Part shown: piece after piece, positions 5,386-19,149 of the stretch
Layout: every line of letters starts with the position of its first letter
Numbering within the stretch: position 1 is the stretch's first letter
IMG/VR virus record: IMGVR_UViG_3300042945_002143
Strand: one strand, 5' to 3'
Origin: an uncultured virus (IMG/VR IMGVR_UViG_3300042945_002143)
Taxonomy: Duplodnaviria; Heunggongvirae; Uroviricota; Caudoviricetes
DNA: 20,000 nucleotides
Made by a program: the position numbers and the translations under genes
The notes under the pieces: generated by a model
The model's input: the letters and a program-made list of their open reading frames with translations, nothing else
Told to the model about the DNA's origin: nothing
Database searches by the model: none

Positions 5386-5416
5386 TTGACACTACGGAAT
5401 ATTCGCTGTAAGTTTG
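5386..5416 (+). promoter_or_regulatory. Promoter P1 of the large ncRNA
   Basis: TTGACA (5386-5391)-N17-TAAGTTTG (5409-5416), followed by TAAAA. Confidence 0.75.
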
Positions 5417-5487: not shown

Positions 5488-5518
5488 TTGACAGAAAGAA
5501 AAAAAAGTCGTAAGTTTG
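5488..5518 (+). promoter_or_regulatory. Promoter P2 of the large ncRNA
   Basis: TTGACA (5488-5493)-N17-TAAGTTTG (5511-5518), followed by TAAAACAA; A-tract upstream. Confidence 0.8.
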
Positions 5519-14975: not shown

Positions 14976-15631
14976 GGTAACATATAATTAGTATTCACAT
15001 GCCAACCCATCCAGTTAAAATCAACAAAAGATTTGTTGTTTGTTATATCCTCAGTTAGACATCCCCATATTAGCTCATCAATATGGTGGTCAAACTTATC
15101 GTGAAGTATGTCAAGTATTTCATCTTCATCAAATCCATAGTAAACTTCACCATCTAATGTTATTTCCATAGATTTAACTAATAAATTAACGTCTATGACA
15201 ATCATTTCGGCATCAACTTCAATATAAAAGTCTTTAGAAAAACGACCTTCAAGAGTTATTTTTTTACGTTCATATTGGGAATCTAATTTAAATGGTTTTC
15301 CCACAAGACAACTATTAATTTCATTTAAACTTTTTTGTGGGATATATAAATTATCGCAATCTAAATAATATAAAAATTGTGGAGCGATGTTAACCTCAGG
15401 AAAAAATTTTCTTAACGAATGTATTTCTTCATCAATGTAACCTGAGAGAGCTTCATGGGTGTATGGTAAGTTTTTAGGGTTTTCTATTGTATAGACAGGT
15501 ACTTTTTTGTAATGAAATGATTTTTTTTCTTCACCTGTTAAATGCAATGTTATACCATCTGCGTTAATTACAGAAAACATTTTAACAACAGTGTCCATTA
15601 ATCTTTTTAGTTGTAATTCACTAGTGTTCAT
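14966..15631 (-). CDS. Hypothetical protein (221 aa)
   Basis: Long minus-strand ORF; convergent 10-nt overlap with the previous gene. Confidence 0.8.
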   Translation of the reverse strand: MNTSELQLKRLMDTVVKMFSVINADGITLHLTGEEKKSFHYKKVPVYTIENPKNLPYTHEALSGYIDEEIHSLRKFFPEVNIAPQFLYYLDCDNLYIPQKSLNEINSCLVGKPFKLDSQYERKKITLEGRFSKDFYIEVDAEMIVIDVNLLVKSMEITLDGEVYYGFDEDEILDILHDKFDHHIDELIWGCLTEDITNNKSFVDFNWMGWHVNTNYMLPYS

Positions 15632-15686
15632 ATTATGTAAATAGTAATAATTTTATTTAAAATTTGAAACTAAAATGAAAAAAAAC

Positions 15687-15717
15687 TTGACATAAGAAGA
15701 AATTTATAGTACTTTTG
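15687..15717 (+). promoter_or_regulatory. Promoter of the tRNA operon
   Basis: TTGACA-N17-TACTTTTG-TAAAACAA; same layout as the ncRNA promoters. Confidence 0.8.
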
Positions 15718-15745
15718 TAAAACAATTGATATTTAATTAGAAACA

Positions 15746-15859
15746 ATGAAACAGAACTCAACACATAACGTAAGTAATCTCCCGACAAACGTGGGCCAAT
15801 CGTGGTTTACGATTAAGGGGCAGGATTGCCGTAAGTTCAGGGTTCTTAATAAGATGTAA
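15746..15859 (+). CDS. Putative attenuator leader peptide (37 aa, MKQNSTHNVSNLPTNVGQSWFTIKGQDCRKFRVLNKM)
   Basis: Short ORF between promoter and terminator; contains AAGTTCAGGGTT (15833-15844), complementary to the terminator's 5' arm. Confidence 0.7.
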   Translation: MKQNSTHNVSNLPTNVGQSWFTIKGQDCRKFRVLNKM

Positions 15860-15881
15860 TCGTATCATCAAATATATAAGG

Positions 15882-15919
15882 AAACCCTGGACTACAAAAA
15901 AGTTCAGGGTTTTTTTTTT
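15882..15919 (+). terminator. Intrinsic terminator (attenuator) upstream of the tRNA array
   Basis: AAACCCTGGACT-ACAAAAA-AGTTCAGGGTTT (12 bp, one G-U) with a T-run to 15919. Confidence 0.9.
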
Positions 15920-15990
15920 GGGATAAAAGCACATAAGGATGTGCGGCTGCTAGACGGCAGAGGGCTTGGGTTCGAATCCCAGATATTCCA
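15920..15990 (+). pseudogene. tRNA-like element with a 6-nt anticodon loop (identity undetermined)
   Basis: Acceptor GGGATA/TATTCC, D arm GCAC/GTGC, CTGC-TAGACG-GCAG, T arm TTGGG-TTCGAAT-CCCAG. Confidence 0.65.
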
Positions 15991-16018
15991 CAGTGGTTCT
16001 TTGACGTATTGGGAAAAT

Positions 16019-16090
16019 GGTGATGTAGCTCAGAGGGAGAGCATCTGATTGTTAATCAGAGGGTCGGGATTTCGAAATTCCCCATCACCG
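16019..16090 (+). tRNA. tRNA-Asn(GTT)
   Basis: Cloverleaf; TCTGA-TTGTTAA-TCAGA. Confidence 0.9.
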
Positions 16091-16100
16091 CAAAAATAAT

Positions 16101-16175
16101 GACTTCGTAGCTCAGCTGGTTTAGAGCACCTCACTTTTAATGAGGGAGTCGTGGGTTCGAGTCCCACCGGGGTCA
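16101..16175 (+). tRNA. tRNA-Lys(TTT)
   Basis: Cloverleaf; CCTCA-CTTTTAA-TGAGG. Confidence 0.95.
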
Positions 16176-16251
16176 CTTTTTTAATTAGGTGGTAAAACAT
16201 ACGTTCAGGTGAACTTTACTAATTTTTCTGATATTTATTAATAAATGAATT

Positions 16252-16710
16252 ATGAAATTATCAGGAGTAACAAAAGAACAAATGTTTGAAGTATTATCTT
16301 CATCAAAATCAATGAGAGAAGTTATTCTTTCATTTGGATTACAACCTAATGGTTCCGGGGGATATCGGAACATTAAACGAAAAATAATGGAACTTGGGTT
16401 AGAAATCCCAAAGTATAATTACTTTGGTGAGGGTTCTAAAAAAAGAAGACATAATGATGAAAATGTTTTTTGTGAGAATTCTCAGTTTCCAAGACAACAT
16501 CTTAAAAAAAGAATTATTAATAATAAAATAATTGATTATATATGCGAAAAATGTAATAATAGTGGGCAATGGGAGGGAAATGATTTATCATTACATTTAG
16601 ACCATAAGAATGGTATAAATGACGATAATAGAATTGAAAATCTGAGATTTCTTTGTCCTAATTGTCATTCACAAACCCCGACATATGCGGGTAAATCAAG
16701 GAAAAAATAA
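16252..16710 (+). CDS. HNH homing endonuclease
   Basis: CEKC...LHLDHKNGINDDNRIENLRFLCPNCHSQT; free-standing within the tRNA array. Confidence 0.9.
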   Translation: MKLSGVTKEQMFEVLSSSKSMREVILSFGLQPNGSGGYRNIKRKIMELGLEIPKYNYFGEGSKKRRHNDENVFCENSQFPRQHLKKRIINNKIIDYICEKCNNSGQWEGNDLSLHLDHKNGINDDNRIENLRFLCPNCHSQTPTYAGKSRKK

Positions 16711-16714
16711 ACAC

Positions 16715-16786
16715 ACGTCTGTAGCTCAGGGGCAGAGCACTTCTCTCCAAAAGAAGGTGTCGGGATTTCGAAATTCTCCAGACGTG
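16715..16786 (+). tRNA. tRNA-Trp(CCA)
   Basis: Cloverleaf; CTTCT-CTCCAAA-AGAAG. Confidence 0.9.
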
Positions 16787-16792
16787 CAACAA

Positions 16793-16866
16793 GCCTCCAT
16801 AGCTCAGCAGGTCAGAGCGACTGATTTGTAATCAGTAGGTCGTTGGTTCGATTCCGACTGGAGGCT
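16793..16866 (+). tRNA. tRNA-Thr(TGT)
   Basis: Cloverleaf; ACTGA-TTTGTAA-TCAGT. Confidence 0.95.
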
Positions 16867-16873
16867 CTAACAT

Positions 16874-16948
16874 TCTCACGTAGCTCAGTTGGTTTAGAGT
16901 TTTTGACTGATATTCAAAAGGTCGTTGGTTCGATTCCAACCGTGAGAA
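16874..16948 (+). tRNA. tRNA-Ile(GAT)
   Basis: Cloverleaf; TTTGA-CTGATAT-TCAAA. Confidence 0.9.
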
Positions 16949-16956
16949 CTTAAAAA

Positions 16957-17033
16957 CGAGTAGTTGGGGAGTCCGGTTACCCCGCTTGCTTTGGGAGCAA
17001 GAGAACTCGCAGGTTCGAATCCTGCCTACTCGA
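16957..17033 (+). tRNA. tRNA-Pro(TGG)
   Basis: Cloverleaf; CTTGC-TTTGGGA-GCAAG. Confidence 0.92.
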
Positions 17034-17040
17034 CTATGAT

Positions 17041-17115
17041 GGGGGTGCATGTACCAAGGCTTGGCGAGAAACACTTGCAATGTTTCTGAGGTCGTTTCGA
17101 TTACGACCATCTCCA
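17041..17115 (+). tRNA. tRNA-Ala(TGC), atypical D arm
   Basis: AAACA-CTTGCAA-TGTTT; G3:U70 and A73 alanine identity elements. Confidence 0.82.
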
Positions 17116-17121
17116 CAACTT

Positions 17122-17195
17122 AGCCCCTTAGCTCAGTGGTTTAGAGCGATTGTCTTACAAACAATAGGTCGTGTGTTCGATTCACACAGGGGCTA
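17122..17195 (+). tRNA. tRNA-Val(TAC)
   Basis: Cloverleaf; ATTGT-CTTACAA-ACAAT. Confidence 0.93.
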
Positions 17196-17268
17196 CATTA
17201 ATCCGGTATAAATCAGTATTATTTTTACCGGAACAACAAAAAAGTTTGTATATTAGCAAACGAAATAT

Positions 17269-17341
17269 GGAGCGGTTACCAACGTGGTCAAGGTGAACGA
17301 CTGAAAATCGTTTTATGAGAGTTCGATTCTCTCCCGCTCCA
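17269..17341 (+). tRNA. tRNA-Phe(GAA)
   Basis: Cloverleaf; AACGA-CTGAAAA-TCGTT. Confidence 0.9.
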
Positions 17342-17493
17342 CGAGGTCCTGAATTGACAGGACAACCCCCACCTCCGATATGGCAGTCGGTCCGTTAATC
17401 CGACGAAGATGGGGTTTTTAAAAAGTGTCTCGGTACGCTCTGACGAAAGTCAACGACGAGGTCTCGGTGGACAGAAGGCCTCTGATTCCACCC
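17342..17493 (+). ncRNA. Unidentified structured RNA element(s) between tRNA-Phe and tRNA-Gly
   Basis: GC-rich non-coding stretch with several hairpins and a possible H-type pseudoknot. Confidence 0.5.
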
Positions 17494-17498
17494 AAACT

Positions 17499-17574
17499 GC
17501 GGGTGTCGTATAACGGCTTATTATGACTGGCTTCCAACCAGTAGACGGGGTTTCGATTACCCCCACCCGCTCCA
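17499..17574 (+). tRNA. tRNA-Gly(TCC), CCA encoded
   Basis: Cloverleaf; ACTGG-CTTCCAA-CCAGT; U73-CCA. Confidence 0.9.
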
Positions 17575-17579
17575 TATAC

Positions 17580-17666
17580 GGTCACGGCGCATAACGGCTG
17601 TTGCGCTACCCTGTCACGGTAGTAAGTAGGTAAACGAAAAAGTGGGTTCGACTCCCATCGTGACCG
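17580..17666 (+). tRNA. tRNA-Asp(GTC) with a 19-nt variable region
   Basis: GGTCACG/CGTGACC acceptor; CTACC-CTGTCAC-GGTAG; G73. Confidence 0.82.
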
Positions 17667-17677
17667 CAGGAAAAAAG

Positions 17678-17715
17678 AATATCACGGGTTCGATTTTAAT
17701 GAAACCCGTGATATT
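17678..17715. repeat. Perfect 13-bp inverted repeat upstream of the endonuclease gene
   Basis: AATATCACGGGTT-N12-AACCCGTGATATT. Confidence 0.8.
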
Positions 17716-17733
17716 TATAATAAAAGGAATGAT

Positions 17734-18555
17734 ATGAACAAGTGTTTGAATTGTGGAAAACCAGTGAAAAATAAATACTGCAATGTTTCTTGTCAAAATA
17801 CTCATACTTGGACTGGAAAAAAACGGAAAAAAGAAAGTATTGAGAGACAAAAAGAATCTAATAAAAATCTATGGAAAGAATTTGATGTTGAATGTTCGGT
17901 TTGTGGTAAGGAGTTTAAAATAAAAGAATTTAATGTTGAGTCCCCCAAAAAAGAAAAATACTATTGTGGTAGGTCTTGTGCAAATAAAAGAGTTTGGGAT
18001 AGTCAACATAAAGAAAAATTAAGTAATATTTGTAAGAACTCTGATAAGGTAATTAGTGCTAATCGTGAAATTGGTAAAAAGAAAAAAGAAAAATCAATTA
18101 AAATTAAAAAAGGTGATTGTCTTTATTGTGGTGAGGCGTTGTATAAATCAAAAAAATATCATTCGGAATGTTGGTTGAAATGTTCAGGGGGTATTAAAGA
18201 AGGTACAAGTCGAGGTAAATCAGGATGGTATAAGGGATATTGGTGTGATAGTAGTTATGAGTTGGCTTGGATTATCTATCAGATAGATAACGGACAAAAA
18301 TTTGAAAGGAATAAAGAAGGGTTTGACTACACACACTCAAACAAAACTCGTAAATTTTATCCTGATTTTATATTACCTGATAAAACTTATGTTGAAATTA
18401 AAAATTATAAGTCAGAATTAACTGATGATAAAATAAAACACTTCCCACATAAAATTGAGGTGATTTATAAAGAAGAAATGAAAGAAAAATATTTACCATA
18501 CGTTACTTCAAAGTACGGTAAAAATTTTATATCATTATATCATAAAGAGGAGTAA
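17734..18555 (+). CDS. Putative homing endonuclease: Cys-rich zinc-finger repeats plus a PD-(D/E)XK domain
   Basis: CLNC..YCNVSC, CSVC..YCGRSC, CLYC; DSSYELAW...FYPDFIL...YVEIK. Confidence 0.82.
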   Translation: MNKCLNCGKPVKNKYCNVSCQNTHTWTGKKRKKESIERQKESNKNLWKEFDVECSVCGKEFKIKEFNVESPKKEKYYCGRSCANKRVWDSQHKEKLSNICKNSDKVISANREIGKKKKEKSIKIKKGDCLYCGEALYKSKKYHSECWLKCSGGIKEGTSRGKSGWYKGYWCDSSYELAWIIYQIDNGQKFERNKEGFDYTHSNKTRKFYPDFILPDKTYVEIKNYKSELTDDKIKHFPHKIEVIYKEEMKEKYLPYVTSKYGKNFISLYHKEE

Positions 18556-18601
18556 CTTGCGTAGGTGCCTCAGGGGACTGCAGCCCCACTACGCTCCATA
18601 T

Positions 18602-18672
18602 TGTCCTGTAGTGAAATGGCATCACACAACATTTTGGATGTTGTATTTCTGGTTCGAGTCCAGACGGGATAA
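18602..18672 (+). tRNA. tRNA-Gln(TTG)
   Basis: Cloverleaf; CAACA-TTTTGGA-TGTTG. Confidence 0.9.
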
Positions 18673-18702
18673 CTATTTTTTGTTTTATTAATAAACTTAC
18701 CT

Positions 18703-18710
18703 TATCTTTG
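18703..18710 (+). promoter_or_regulatory. Bacteroidota-type -7 element (TATCTTTG), 4 nt before ATG 18715
   Basis: TAnnTTTG, intergenic. Confidence 0.6.
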
Positions 18711-18714
18711 TATT

Positions 18715-19149
18715 ATGAAAAAAGAATTTGTTACATACGAAATTGCTTCGGAACTCAAGAAACTTGGATTTGATGAACCTTGTTTTGGCAGATATGACGG
18801 AAGAGGTAAAAACAAAGGTAAAATTTGGTATGAAATGCCAAATTCAGGACAAGATACTATTCCTGTTGGTGATGTATTAGCACCACTATACCAACAGGTA
18901 TTCAGATGGTTTGAAGAGAAGTATTCATACTTTGTGGATGTTAAAACTGACACCACACCAAATGAGATTTTGGGATTTGATTATTATATCAAGAGTTGGA
19001 AGTTTGGACCAAAATATTTTAATTTCTTCAAAGAAAAGGAAGAAGGTAACATTAAGGTTATCAAGATAATGATTGAGATGGTGAAGAAAGAGAAACAAAA
19101 GGAAGCTCTTATTGAGTTGATGGATAATGATAAAGATTTAGATAAATAA
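18715..19149 (+). CDS. Hypothetical phage protein (144 aa)
   Basis: EFVTYEIA.ELKKLGFDEPC...APLYQQVFRWF, a pattern I associate with Bacteroidota phage ORFs. Confidence 0.8.
   Translation: MKKEFVTYEIASELKKLGFDEPCFGRYDGRGKNKGKIWYEMPNSGQDTIPVGDVLAPLYQQVFRWFEEKYSYFVDVKTDTTPNEILGFDYYIKSWKFGPKYFNFFKEKEEGNIKVIKIMIEMVKKEKQKEALIELMDNDKDLDK

What the first reader, a model, noticed from the sequence alone, without database searches (positions are those of the whole stretch)
15687..15919. Leader-peptide transcription attenuator gating the phage tRNA array: a candidate sensor of tRNA depletion
Seen in sequence: promoter (15687-15717), then a 37-codon ORF (15746-15859), then a strong terminator (15882-15919), then the tRNAs. 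The ORF's 3' end contains AAGTTCAGGGTT (15833-15844), identical to 15900-15911, which spans the terminator's 3' arm. It can therefore pair with the 5' arm AACCCTGGACT, extendable by CTTA/TAAG and GTA/TAC, giving two mutually exclusive helices. The first 29 codons use 25 different codons and the ORF covers 17 amino acids. It includes codons unusual for this AT-rich genome (CTC, CCG, GTG, GGC, TCG, ACG, GGG, TGC). Eleven of the 12 amino acids served by the array occur in it (all but Ala). Established: trp/his-type attenuation works by ribosome stalling selecting antiterminator versus terminator. Inference: a ribosome reaching the stop occludes the antiterminator strand, so transcription terminates. 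Stalling at almost any codon (starvation, or tRNA cleavage by host anticodon nucleases) frees that strand and induces phage tRNAs. I know of no described attenuator of this generalist kind controlling a phage tRNA operon.
Basis: partly seen in the sequence, partly recalled or inferred. Interest (0 to 1): 0.92.

Follow-up and report, generated by a model that had tools for sequence, protein, structure and literature searches.

The report
Leader-ORF attenuator gating phage tRNA genes
A lake-water giant phage places a tiny translated reading frame, written mostly in the codons that its own tRNA genes read, in front of a switchable transcription stop, so it probably makes these tRNAs when ribosomes run short of them.

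Summary
There is a Bacteroidota-type promoter (15687-15717), a 37-codon ORF (15746-15859) and a strong terminator (15880-19). A 12-nt copy of the terminator's 3' arm lies inside the ORF. A boxA-like 17-mer and the tRNA array follow.

The reading as a leader-ORF attenuator is supported by comparison, not by experiment.
- Thirty close relatives keep the module.
- All 35 non-redundant terminators found upstream of the same boxA in other phage contigs are preceded by a 22-37-codon ORF.
- In 25 of these 35 an antiterminator strand lies at the ORF's end.
- Peptides evolve nearly neutrally (pN/pS 0.76), but the frame stays open.
- In 15 independent leader/array pairs, 90% of array anticodons have a cognate codon in their own leader. 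Permuted pairs give 70% (0 of 20000 reach 90%).
- This match exists only in the ORF's frame.
- In this phage 29 of 36 leader codons are cognate to the downstream tRNAs, and codons of separately promoted tRNAs are avoided.

So "any codon" becomes "the operon's own codons". I found no publication of this. This scan has noted the same kind of module before on other DNA.

The parts
15687..15717 (+). Promoter of Bacteroidota type: TTGACA (15687-15692), 17-nt spacer, TACTTTTG (15710-15717). The transcription start near 15723-15725 is inferred.
   Evidence: Read. Both boxes are kept in relatives while the spacer varies. The motif is enriched in the window, 12 against 2.4 +- 1.4 in shuffles. The consensus is recalled from the literature.
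15746..15859 (+). Leader ORF of 37 codons plus TAA. Its upstream region is A-rich with no Shine-Dalgarno sequence.
   Evidence: It is intact at 37 codons in all 15 distinct variants. Its codon content matches the downstream tRNAs.
15753..15759 (+). Region 1 (AGAACUC), which can pair with 15840-15846 and so sequester part of the antiterminator strand.
   Evidence: Minimum-energy fold of the full leader. It is invariant in relatives, so it has no covariation support.
15790..15811 (+). Nine-bp hairpin inside the ORF. Its 3' arm begins with the conserved Trp codon UGG (15803-15805). It is a possible pause or spacing element.
   Evidence: Its loop varies freely (AUCG, AUCA, AACU, AGCG, AUCU). Stem changes keep pairing (G.U to A-U, C-G to U.G); one G to C in L028 breaks a pair.
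15834..15851 (+). Region 2, the antiterminator 5' strand, lying in codons 30-36 of the ORF. It contains the 12-mer copy of the terminator's 3' arm.
   Evidence: A ribosome with the stop codon in its A site would cover about 15842-15871 (footprint size recalled).
15873..15893 (+). Region 3. It pairs either with region 2 (antiterminator) or, through 15880-15893, with region 4 (terminator).
   Evidence: In the L014, L018, L020, L030, L031 and L033 variants it changes (G to A) and remains complementary to both partners.
15880..15919 (+). Intrinsic terminator: stem of 12-14 bp, loop ACAAAAA, run of ten T.
   Evidence: It is conserved, with arm changes that keep pairing, in 29 of 29 relatives that reach it.
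15920..15990 (+). tRNA-like insert with a 4-nt loop where the anticodon loop should be. It is present only in the window and four identical loci.
   Evidence: Rfam tRNA 27.4 bits, below the gathering score of 29. Absent from the other relatives, where the terminator abuts boxA. Relaxed ARAGORN finds no anticodon.
15996..16012 (+). boxA-like 17-mer (one mismatch to the common form). It is a probable loading site for the Nus antitermination complex, placed after the gate.
   Evidence: The 17-mer is in more than 117 viral contigs next to tRNAs. In bacterial contigs it lies between the spacer tRNA-Ala and the 23S 5' end. The boxA function is recalled, not tested.
16019..18673 (+). tRNA array: Asn, Lys, (HNH ORF), Trp, Thr, Ile, Pro, Ala, Val, Phe, Gly, Asp-like, (endonuclease-like ORF), Gln.
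   Evidence: No promoter motif lies on the + strand between 15717 and 18680.

Best explanation
This is a ribosome-operated transcription attenuator at the head of the phage's tRNA operon.

Proposed sequence of events:
1. Host RNA polymerase starts at the 15687-15717 promoter.
2. A ribosome loads on the 37-codon leader ORF.
3. If the ribosome runs quickly to the stop codon, it covers the antiterminator strand (15834-15851). The terminator (15880-15919) then forms and most transcripts end there.
4. If the ribosome lags or stalls, that strand pairs with 15873-15893 and the terminator cannot form.
5. Polymerase then reads on through the boxA-like site, which probably makes it termination-resistant, and transcribes the tRNAs.

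The leader is written mainly in codons read by the tRNAs behind it. The signal is therefore most likely the supply of those very tRNAs, giving a feedback loop on tRNA supply.

Shown here: the anatomy, the competing helices, their conservation, the open frame, and the frame-specific leader/array codon match.
Inferred: translation of the ORF, the direction of the switch, and what limits the ribosome in vivo.
For: 1. Anatomy and competing folds. The forced antiterminator state scores -47.8 kcal/mol and the terminator state -52.3. With the 3' arm not yet made, the minimum-energy fold is an 18-bp antiterminator. A ribosome on the stop codon leaves the terminator.

2. Close relatives.
- All 30 true relatives from two pattern scans keep the module. 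The 29 that extend far enough have boxA and a tRNA right behind it.
- The leader is 92-98% identical in L001, L002, L009 and L010, where alignable flanks are 82-91% or do not align.
- Changes in region 3 preserve pairing with both partners.

3. Family.
- Of 99 non-redundant boxA contexts, 35 have a terminator within 110 nt upstream. All 35 are preceded by an ATG ORF of 22-37 codons.
- The ORF frame holds 0 stops, against 88 and 123 in the other frames over 1087 codons.
- pN/pS is 0.76, and length differences come in multiples of three.
- In 25 of 35 the terminator's 5' arm pairs upstream. The partner ends from 4 nt after to 24 nt before the stop codon.

4. Codon census in 15 independent pairs.
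- 59.9% of leader codons are read by their own array, against 45.2 +- 2.3% when permuted.
- 148 of 168 anticodons are represented in their own leader, a mean of 0.90 against 0.70 +- 0.04.
- 0 of 20000 permutations reach either value.
- Frames +1 and +2 show nothing (z -1.7 to -0.7).
- In 20 of 20 pairs the leader is richer in cognate codons than the same locus's long ORFs.
- One contig with two modules splits its tRNAs between its two leaders as predicted.

5. This phage.
- 24 of 36 leader codons are cognate to the array (P 0.016).
- 29 of 36 are cognate when the next cluster is added (P 0.0014).
- Only 1 of 36 is cognate to tRNAs with their own promoters, against 7.3 +- 2.5 in gene windows (P 0.004).

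6. No other promoter motif lies before the array.

7. Contigs from RNA libraries of two studies bridge the terminator in close relatives. One runs on into tRNA-Asn. This is weak evidence, because DNA in those libraries cannot be excluded.
Against: - There is no experiment. Translation of the ORF is inferred, and gene callers never called it (4 of 4 peptides tried are absent from the protein collection).
- In 10 of 35 family members no antiterminator pairing was predicted. In the largest subfamily it is weak.
- By my reading, several members (for example L048, L111, L132 and L067) have a further promoter motif between terminator and boxA. In those, tRNAs need not depend on readthrough.
- The match is not exact here. 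Seven of 36 codons are not cognate, and tRNA-Ala has no codon in the leader.
- Close relatives keep almost the same leader while their arrays differ in Asn, Lys, Ala and Val.
- The 3' half of the ORF is almost invariant at the nucleotide level. His (CAT), Pro (always CCG) and Trp are nearly invariant across subfamilies. So constraints on the RNA or on the nascent peptide that I cannot explain are also at work.
- Region 1 has no covariation. The untranslated truncated transcript already prefers the antiterminator, so the behaviour without translation is uncertain.
- The wobble rules I used are simplified.
Confidence: 0.74

Rival explanations
1. The leader is an RNA switch worked by a trans-acting factor: a small ligand, a phage or host protein, or a tRNA as in T-boxes. 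That factor stabilises or opens the 15753-15846 domain. The ORF would be incidental or only modulatory.
For: - The full-length fold closes a multi-stem domain with a P1-like helix whose 3' strand overlaps the antiterminator strand, as in riboswitches.
- Nucleotide conservation exceeds what codon identity needs.
- CAT, CCG and TGG are nearly invariant, and CC(G) and (U)GG could pair.
- A small hairpin holding the stop codon covaries in one subfamily.
Against: - All 35 ORFs are open and their length differences preserve the frame.
- The antiterminator strand always sits at the ORF's end.
- The codon match with the array is seen only in frame 0.
- No Rfam family, T-box included, matches.
- The internal structure is not conserved between subfamilies.
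Confidence: 0.1
2. The module is an independent small gene, coding for a microprotein or a small RNA of about 195 nt, with its own constitutive terminator. The tRNAs would be made by leak-through or from other promoters. The closeness to tRNAs would reflect shared ancestry or processing.
For: - Strong promoter and strong terminator.
- Several family members carry another promoter motif between terminator and boxA.
- Small stable RNAs of unknown role lie in the T4 tRNA cluster (recalled).
Against: - pN/pS of 0.76 argues against a functional protein.
- An RNA-only gene would not keep a frame open or match codons in one frame only.
- The window has no promoter motif between 15717 and 18680.
- The internal copy of the terminator arm is unexplained by this reading.
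Confidence: 0.08
3. Translation of the leader matters, but by another route than hairpin competition. Examples are shielding the RNA from Rho or from nucleases, or a nascent-peptide arrest involving the conserved His, Pro and Trp, as with TnaC.
For: - His7 and Trp20 are present in at least 90% of 23 aligned leaders.
- The likeness to TnaC's His...Trp-Phe pattern is recalled and was not tested.
- boxA elements act against Rho (passages of PMC4807359 read).
Against: - The terminator is a canonical intrinsic one, and a precise competing helix is conserved.
- Subfamilies without Trp exist and go with arrays without tRNA-Trp: 0 of 6 such arrays have it, against 12 of 15 arrays behind Trp-containing leaders. 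That fits codon sensing better than a peptide motif.
Confidence: 0.08

Closest known systems
Leader-peptide transcription attenuators of amino-acid operons (E. coli/Salmonella trpL, hisL, pheL; the multivalent thrL and ilvL)
   Same: A short translated ORF, an intrinsic terminator, and a competing antiterminator whose upstream strand is masked by a ribosome at the end of the ORF. The regulatory codons are cognate to the pathway's end product. Multivalent leaders mix several codon kinds.
   Different: The controlled genes are tRNA genes, not enzymes. There are no runs of one codon; most codons occur once or twice and together cover nearly every tRNA of the operon. The element sits in a phage with Bacteroidota-type signals and has no Shine-Dalgarno sequence. 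It is followed by a boxA. No Rfam leader family matches.
pheM leader of pheST and T-box leaders of aminoacyl-tRNA synthetase genes
   Same: Translation-machinery genes are controlled by the state of the tRNA pool through a terminator/antiterminator choice.
   Different: pheM senses a single tRNA. T-boxes bind uncharged tRNA directly, without a ribosome. No T-box elements were detected here. In this element the product is the tRNA itself.
Leader ORFs that sense general translation inhibition (ermC, vmlR and related resistance leaders)
   Same: A stalled ribosome on a short leader ORF remodels downstream RNA and induces the genes behind it.
   Different: Those respond to drug-bound ribosomes at a defined peptide. 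Here the codon content tracks the downstream tRNA set.
boxA/Nus antitermination of rRNA and tRNA operons
   Same: The 17-mer after the terminator is the sequence found before 23S rRNA in Bacteroidota spacers and before many phage tRNAs.
   Different: It lies downstream of the gate. It cannot help polymerase through this terminator and acts, if at all, on what follows.

Membership tests
Leader-peptide (ribosome-mediated) transcription attenuators | A short ORF in the leader, upstream of the regulated genes and on the same transcript | tested here: met
   The ORF is at 15746-15859. It is conserved and open in 15 of 15 variants and in 35 of 35 family members. No other promoter motif lies before the array. 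RNA-library contigs of relatives bridge leader and tRNA, which is weak evidence.
Leader-peptide (ribosome-mediated) transcription attenuators | An intrinsic terminator between the ORF and the genes | tested here: met
   Terminator at 15880-19, with a 12-14 bp stem and ten T.
Leader-peptide (ribosome-mediated) transcription attenuators | An antiterminator that excludes the terminator, placed so that a ribosome at the ORF's end masks it | tested here: met
   15834-15851 pairs with 15873-15893. In 25 of 35 family members the partner strand ends from 4 nt after to 24 nt before the stop codon; 10 of 35 show no such pairing.
Leader-peptide (ribosome-mediated) transcription attenuators | Regulatory codons cognate to the product of the regulated genes | tested here: met
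   This is met in a dispersed form. 24-29 of 36 codons are cognate. The family-wide match is frame-specific. There are no codon runs.
Leader-peptide (ribosome-mediated) transcription attenuators | Readthrough depends on translation and on charged-tRNA supply | not testable with these tools
   This needs reporter, Term-seq or Ribo-seq experiments.
Rfam leader families (Trp, His, Leu, Thr, rnk and others) | A score at or above the family's gathering threshold | tested here: not met
   Best scores: rnk_leader 26.2 bits against 50; Leu_leader 24.4 and Thr_leader 24.1 on other members.
T-box riboswitch | Stem I with specifier loop, and the T-box sequence in the antiterminator | tested here: not met
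   No T-box match up to E = 1 in 15500-18800.
boxA (NusB/NusE site) of rRNA/tRNA operons | Conserved sequence in rRNA operon leaders or spacers; binding of NusB-NusE | tested here: inconclusive
   The position before 23S and after the spacer tRNA-Ala is met in two bacterial contigs. Binding was not tested. The likeness to known boxA sequences is recalled.

The most novel reading that the evidence does not exclude
Each phage tRNA operon carries a leader ORF that acts as a one-codon-each census of the tRNAs behind it. A shortage of any single one of them stalls the ribosome and opens the operon. The shortage could come from a codon-usage mismatch with the host, from starvation, or from cleavage by host anticodon nucleases. 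This would be a self-tuning tRNA supply and a built-in detector of tRNA-targeting defence. It appears widespread in phages with Bacteroidota-type signals and modular: one leader per operon, as in the two-module contig.
Probability: 0.4. Interest if true: 0.9.

Novelty: new variant of a known kind. Interest (0 to 1): 0.8.

Why it matters
Phage tRNA genes are usually treated as passively expressed cargo. A ribosome-read gate whose codons mirror the operon's own tRNAs would show that phages measure tRNA supply and adjust it.

It would also extend classical attenuation from amino-acid synthesis to the tRNAs themselves. It links to current work on tRNA depletion and anticodon nucleases as anti-phage defence.

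It gives a testable rule: the leader's codon set predicts which tRNAs belong to one transcription unit. And it offers a compact, multi-input translation sensor for Bacteroidota, where few regulatory parts are known.

Four full-text searches found no description of it. Subscription-only papers were not searchable.

Tried and rejected
- **Rfam.** No family fits the leader.
- **GenBank phages.** blastn matched only the tRNAs, and no place covered more than 17% of the query.
- **Neighbour protein.** The 221-aa neighbour has 78 homologues, all unnamed. I did not use them further.
- **Largest subfamily in bacterial genomes.** The pattern search gave 31 hits. The five I read were chance matches inside unrelated sequence, and the rest lie in unrelated phyla.
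- **Fixed-spacing T-run/boxA pattern.** It was too strict (6 hits) but did show the rRNA-spacer context.
- **T-run within 30 nt of the exact 17-mer.** Not found in 401 sampled Bacteroidota genomes. This does not show absence.
- **Leader peptides in the protein collection.** Four exact sequences are not there.
- **TnaC-like arrest peptide.** This is only a recalled likeness. My Pfam call failed on a too-short second entry and I did not repeat it, so the idea is untested.
- **Aligning L152 and L157 to the window's leader.** The alignment was unreliable around region 2.
- **Antiterminator in the largest subfamily.** Duplex z-scores were near zero. The consensus fold instead pairs the start region with the ORF's end.
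- **Codon diversity as a family trait.** It is only mild.
- **'11 of 12 amino acids'.** Not significant by itself.
- **RNA-library contigs.** They show no cover at 15502-15739 and 16182-16400. Missing cover in contigs proves nothing, so I do not use it.
- **Minus-strand promoter-like match at 15897-15869.** It is not kept in relatives.
- **boxA-like site before the second tRNA cluster.** None was found at up to 2 mismatches.

Full report
**1. What is there**

- TTGACA lies at 15687-15692 and TACTTTTG at 15710-15717.
- An A-rich untranslated stretch follows, then ATG at 15746 and TAA at 15857-15859. The ORF has 37 codons.
- The hairpin has its 5' arm at 15880-15893, loop at 15894-15900 and 3' arm at 15901-15914, and ends in ten T at 15919.
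- The 12-mer AAGTTCAGGGTT occurs at 15833-15844 and again at 15900-15911.
- The promoter motif TTG-N17-21-TAnnTTTG is the Bacteroidota consensus as I recall it. It occurs 12 times in the window against 2.4 +- 1.4 in shuffles.
- On the + strand no further copy lies between 15717 and 18680. That span covers the whole array 16019-18673.
- The leader folds better than all 200 shuffles (z -4.3).

**2. The switch**

- In the full transcript the minimum-energy fold has the terminator plus a closing helix, 15753-15759 with 15840-15846, that ties up part of region 2.
- If the transcript is cut at 15899, before the 3' arm exists, the best fold pairs 15834-15851 with 15873-15893. It does so with or without a ribosome stalled at codon 7, 13 or 20.
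- With a ribosome on the stop codon (15842-15871 masked), the full transcript keeps only the terminator.
- The forced antiterminator state scores -47.8 kcal/mol and the terminator state -52.3.
- The geometry is that of classical attenuators. The role of region 1 is uncertain, because the antiterminator wins even without translation.

**3. Close relatives**

- A scan for the terminator gave 11 IMG/VR loci. A scan for an 18-mer inside the ORF gave 32, of which 2 were chance hits.
- Among the 30 true relatives and the window there are 15 distinct leaders, all with an intact 37-codon ORF. One locus is cut short.
- All 29 that reach far enough carry the boxA-like sequence and a tRNA directly behind the terminator.
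- In L001, L002, L009 and L010 the leader is 92-98% identical, while alignable flanks are 82-91% or do not align. In L003, L006 and L011 the upstream 2 kb is as conserved as the leader. Four loci are identical to the window.
- In six variants region 3 changes (CTGGACT to CTGAACT) and region 4 changes (AGTTCAGGG to AGTTCGGGG) while region 2 stays. Region 3 thus remains complementary to both partners.
- In L033 a C to T change in region 2 gives a U.G pair.
- These are one-sided or wobble changes, not full compensatory pairs.

**4. A wider family**

- The 17-mer after the terminator is widespread. More than 117 viral contigs carry it, typically as promoter, 17-mer, tRNA.
- In a Mucilaginibacter contig it lies between the spacer tRNA-Ala and the 5' end of 23S rRNA. 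In a second contig it lies before 23S. That is where rRNA operons carry boxA, by my recall. Passages of PMC4807359 on boxA and Nus factors were read.
- Of 99 non-redundant contexts, 35 have a terminator within 110 nt upstream. All 35 are preceded by an ATG ORF of 22-37 codons.
- These ORFs have no stop in frame, against 88 and 123 in the other two frames over 1087 codons. A shuffled ORF stays open about one time in ten. I did pick the longest frame, so there is some ascertainment bias.
- The peptides are poorly conserved. In 12 related leaders pN/pS is 0.76, and variable columns number 13, 18 and 18 of 34 at codon positions 1, 2 and 3. Length differences are multiples of three.
- Met1, His7 and Trp20 are nearly invariant in 23 aligned leaders.
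- Pro is always CCG, and His is CAT in all but one. I cannot explain these invariants.
- In truncated-transcript folds the terminator's 5' arm pairs upstream over at least 6 nt in 25 of 35. Its partner ends from 4 nt after to 24 nt before the stop codon.
- Fourteen of 35 beat 90% of shuffles. Ten of 35 show no such pairing.
- By my reading, several members have another promoter motif between terminator and boxA. The gate is therefore not the only route to tRNA expression everywhere.

**5. What the ORF is written in**

I refetched the boxA loci with 4-kb flanks. This gave 20 distinct leaders with their downstream same-strand tRNAs. I grouped them by eye into 14 clusters and added the window, making 15 pairs.

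Under strict wobble rules:
- 59.9% of leader codons are read by their own array, against 45.2 +- 2.3% after permuting arrays. None of 20000 permutations reach the observed value.
- 148 of 168 array anticodons have at least one cognate codon in their own leader. The mean per pair is 0.90 against 0.70 +- 0.04, and again 0 of 20000 permutations reach it.
- Reading the same nucleotides in frames +1 or +2 abolishes the signal (z -1.7, -1.7, -0.7, -0.9, against +6.5 and +5.0 in frame 0).
- In 20 of 20 pairs the leader is richer in cognate codons than windows of the same locus's long ORFs (mean z 2.0; 9 of 20 at P<0.05).
- If an array holds a tRNA for Trp, His, Glu, Asp, Phe, Tyr, Gln, Asn, Thr or Lys, the leader never lacks that amino acid (0 of 7 to 0 of 16 cases each). 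Exceptions occur for Pro, Gly, Cys, Val and Ala.
- One contig has two modules. The first leader lacks codons for exactly the three tRNAs (Leu-TAA, Arg-TCT, Pro-TGG) that sit behind the second leader, and the second leader has all three.

**6. This phage**

- The nearest held record is a 55-kb fragment, 19% complete by CheckV.
- Beyond the window's end the same strand carries three weak tRNA-like hits. Then come Ser-TGA, Leu-TAG, His-GTG, Arg-ACG and Cys-GCA.
- Further on lie Phe, Met plus Glu, Tyr, and Met plus Leu-TAA. The Met/Glu and Tyr genes have a promoter motif directly in front and no leader.
- Of the 36 leader codons after the start, 24 are cognate to the 12 tRNAs of the window's array. 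Gene windows give 17.7 +- 2.8 (P 0.016).
- With the next cluster added, 29 are cognate, against 20.4 +- 2.8 (P 0.0014).
- Only 1 is cognate to the separately promoted Glu, Tyr, Leu-TAA and Met tRNAs, against 7.3 +- 2.5 (P 0.004).
- The leader lacks Ala, Glu and Tyr. tRNA-Ala is the one array member without a codon.
- The leader's odd codon usage fits an ORF chosen for which codons it holds and for RNA pairing, not for efficient expression.

**7. RNA libraries**

- No run holds the window as RNA in full.
- Contigs from four metatranscriptome runs of lake and river water match close relatives at 90-99%.
- Two contigs bridge the terminator: X17 record 7 (69 and 33 letters on either side) and X18 record 12. 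The latter runs from 15749 through the terminator and boxA into tRNA-Asn, ending at 16081.
- Contigs cannot show ends or levels, and DNA in these libraries is not excluded. This is weak support for co-transcription.

**8. Comparison and novelty**

- The logic is that of trp/his-type attenuation, and nearest to the multivalent thr and ilv leaders.
- It differs in three ways. The regulated genes are tRNAs. The codons are dispersed, roughly one or two per tRNA, instead of in runs. A boxA follows the gate.
- No Rfam family fits.
- Four full-text searches gave nothing on attenuators of tRNA operons or phage tRNA arrays (search listings and abstracts only). In PMC9723704 I read passages that mention leader-peptide attenuation only for amino-acid operons in a Flavobacterium.
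- Earlier notes of this scan describe the same kind of module in other phages, including a near-identical relative. They are unchecked AI notes and are not counted as evidence. I tested the codon-match idea independently here.

**9. Verdict**

- The attenuator reading is supported by several independent comparative tests. The strongest is the frame-specific match between each leader and its own tRNAs.
- The mechanism, the direction of the switch and the in-vivo signal remain inferred.

Noticed in passing
window 15920-15990; L281 19716-19798, 19395-19461, 18946-19026 (minus strand): These are tRNA-like elements with normal acceptor, D and T arms but a 4-nt loop or an insert where the anticodon loop should be. 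The three beyond the window share one acceptor stem. The one in the window is an insertion between terminator and boxA, found only in the window and four identical loci. They could be processing signals or decoys; their role is unknown.
   Followed up: partly
window 17580-17667: This tRNA-Asp(GTC)-like gene has a long insert in the variable region. It scores 41.9 bits in Rfam, is missed by default ARAGORN, and is called Asp only with relaxed settings. Relatives have a normal tRNA-Asp at this place.
   Followed up: partly
window 16252-16710 and 17734-18555: An HNH endonuclease ORF (PHROG E 2e-42) and a weak endonuclease-like ORF sit inside the tRNA array. They are absent from several relatives, as expected of mobile homing-type insertions.
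   Followed up: no
23 aligned leaders (A1); window codons 7, 13, 20: His (CAT), Pro (always CCG) and Trp are nearly invariant across otherwise drifting leader peptides. CC(G) and (U)GG could pair. It is unexplained whether this reflects codon sensing, RNA structure or a nascent-peptide effect.
   Followed up: partly
L045 1-144: The 3' part of a GOLLD RNA (Rfam 103 bits, cut by the locus start) lies directly upstream of another phage's leader module and tRNA array.
   Followed up: no
L160 77-269 (minus strand): A group I intron (Rfam 53.7 bits) lies next to a tRNA array that carries a leader module.
   Followed up: no
window 5386-5416 and 5488-5518: Two tandem promoter-like sites (TTGACA ... 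TAAGTTTG) lie 100 nt apart in an intergenic stretch.
   Followed up: no
L281 14526-14640 and 13256-13330 (minus strand): The tRNA-Met/Glu and tRNA-Tyr genes of the same phage have a promoter motif directly in front and no leader ORF. The leader at 15746 avoids their codons.
   Followed up: partly
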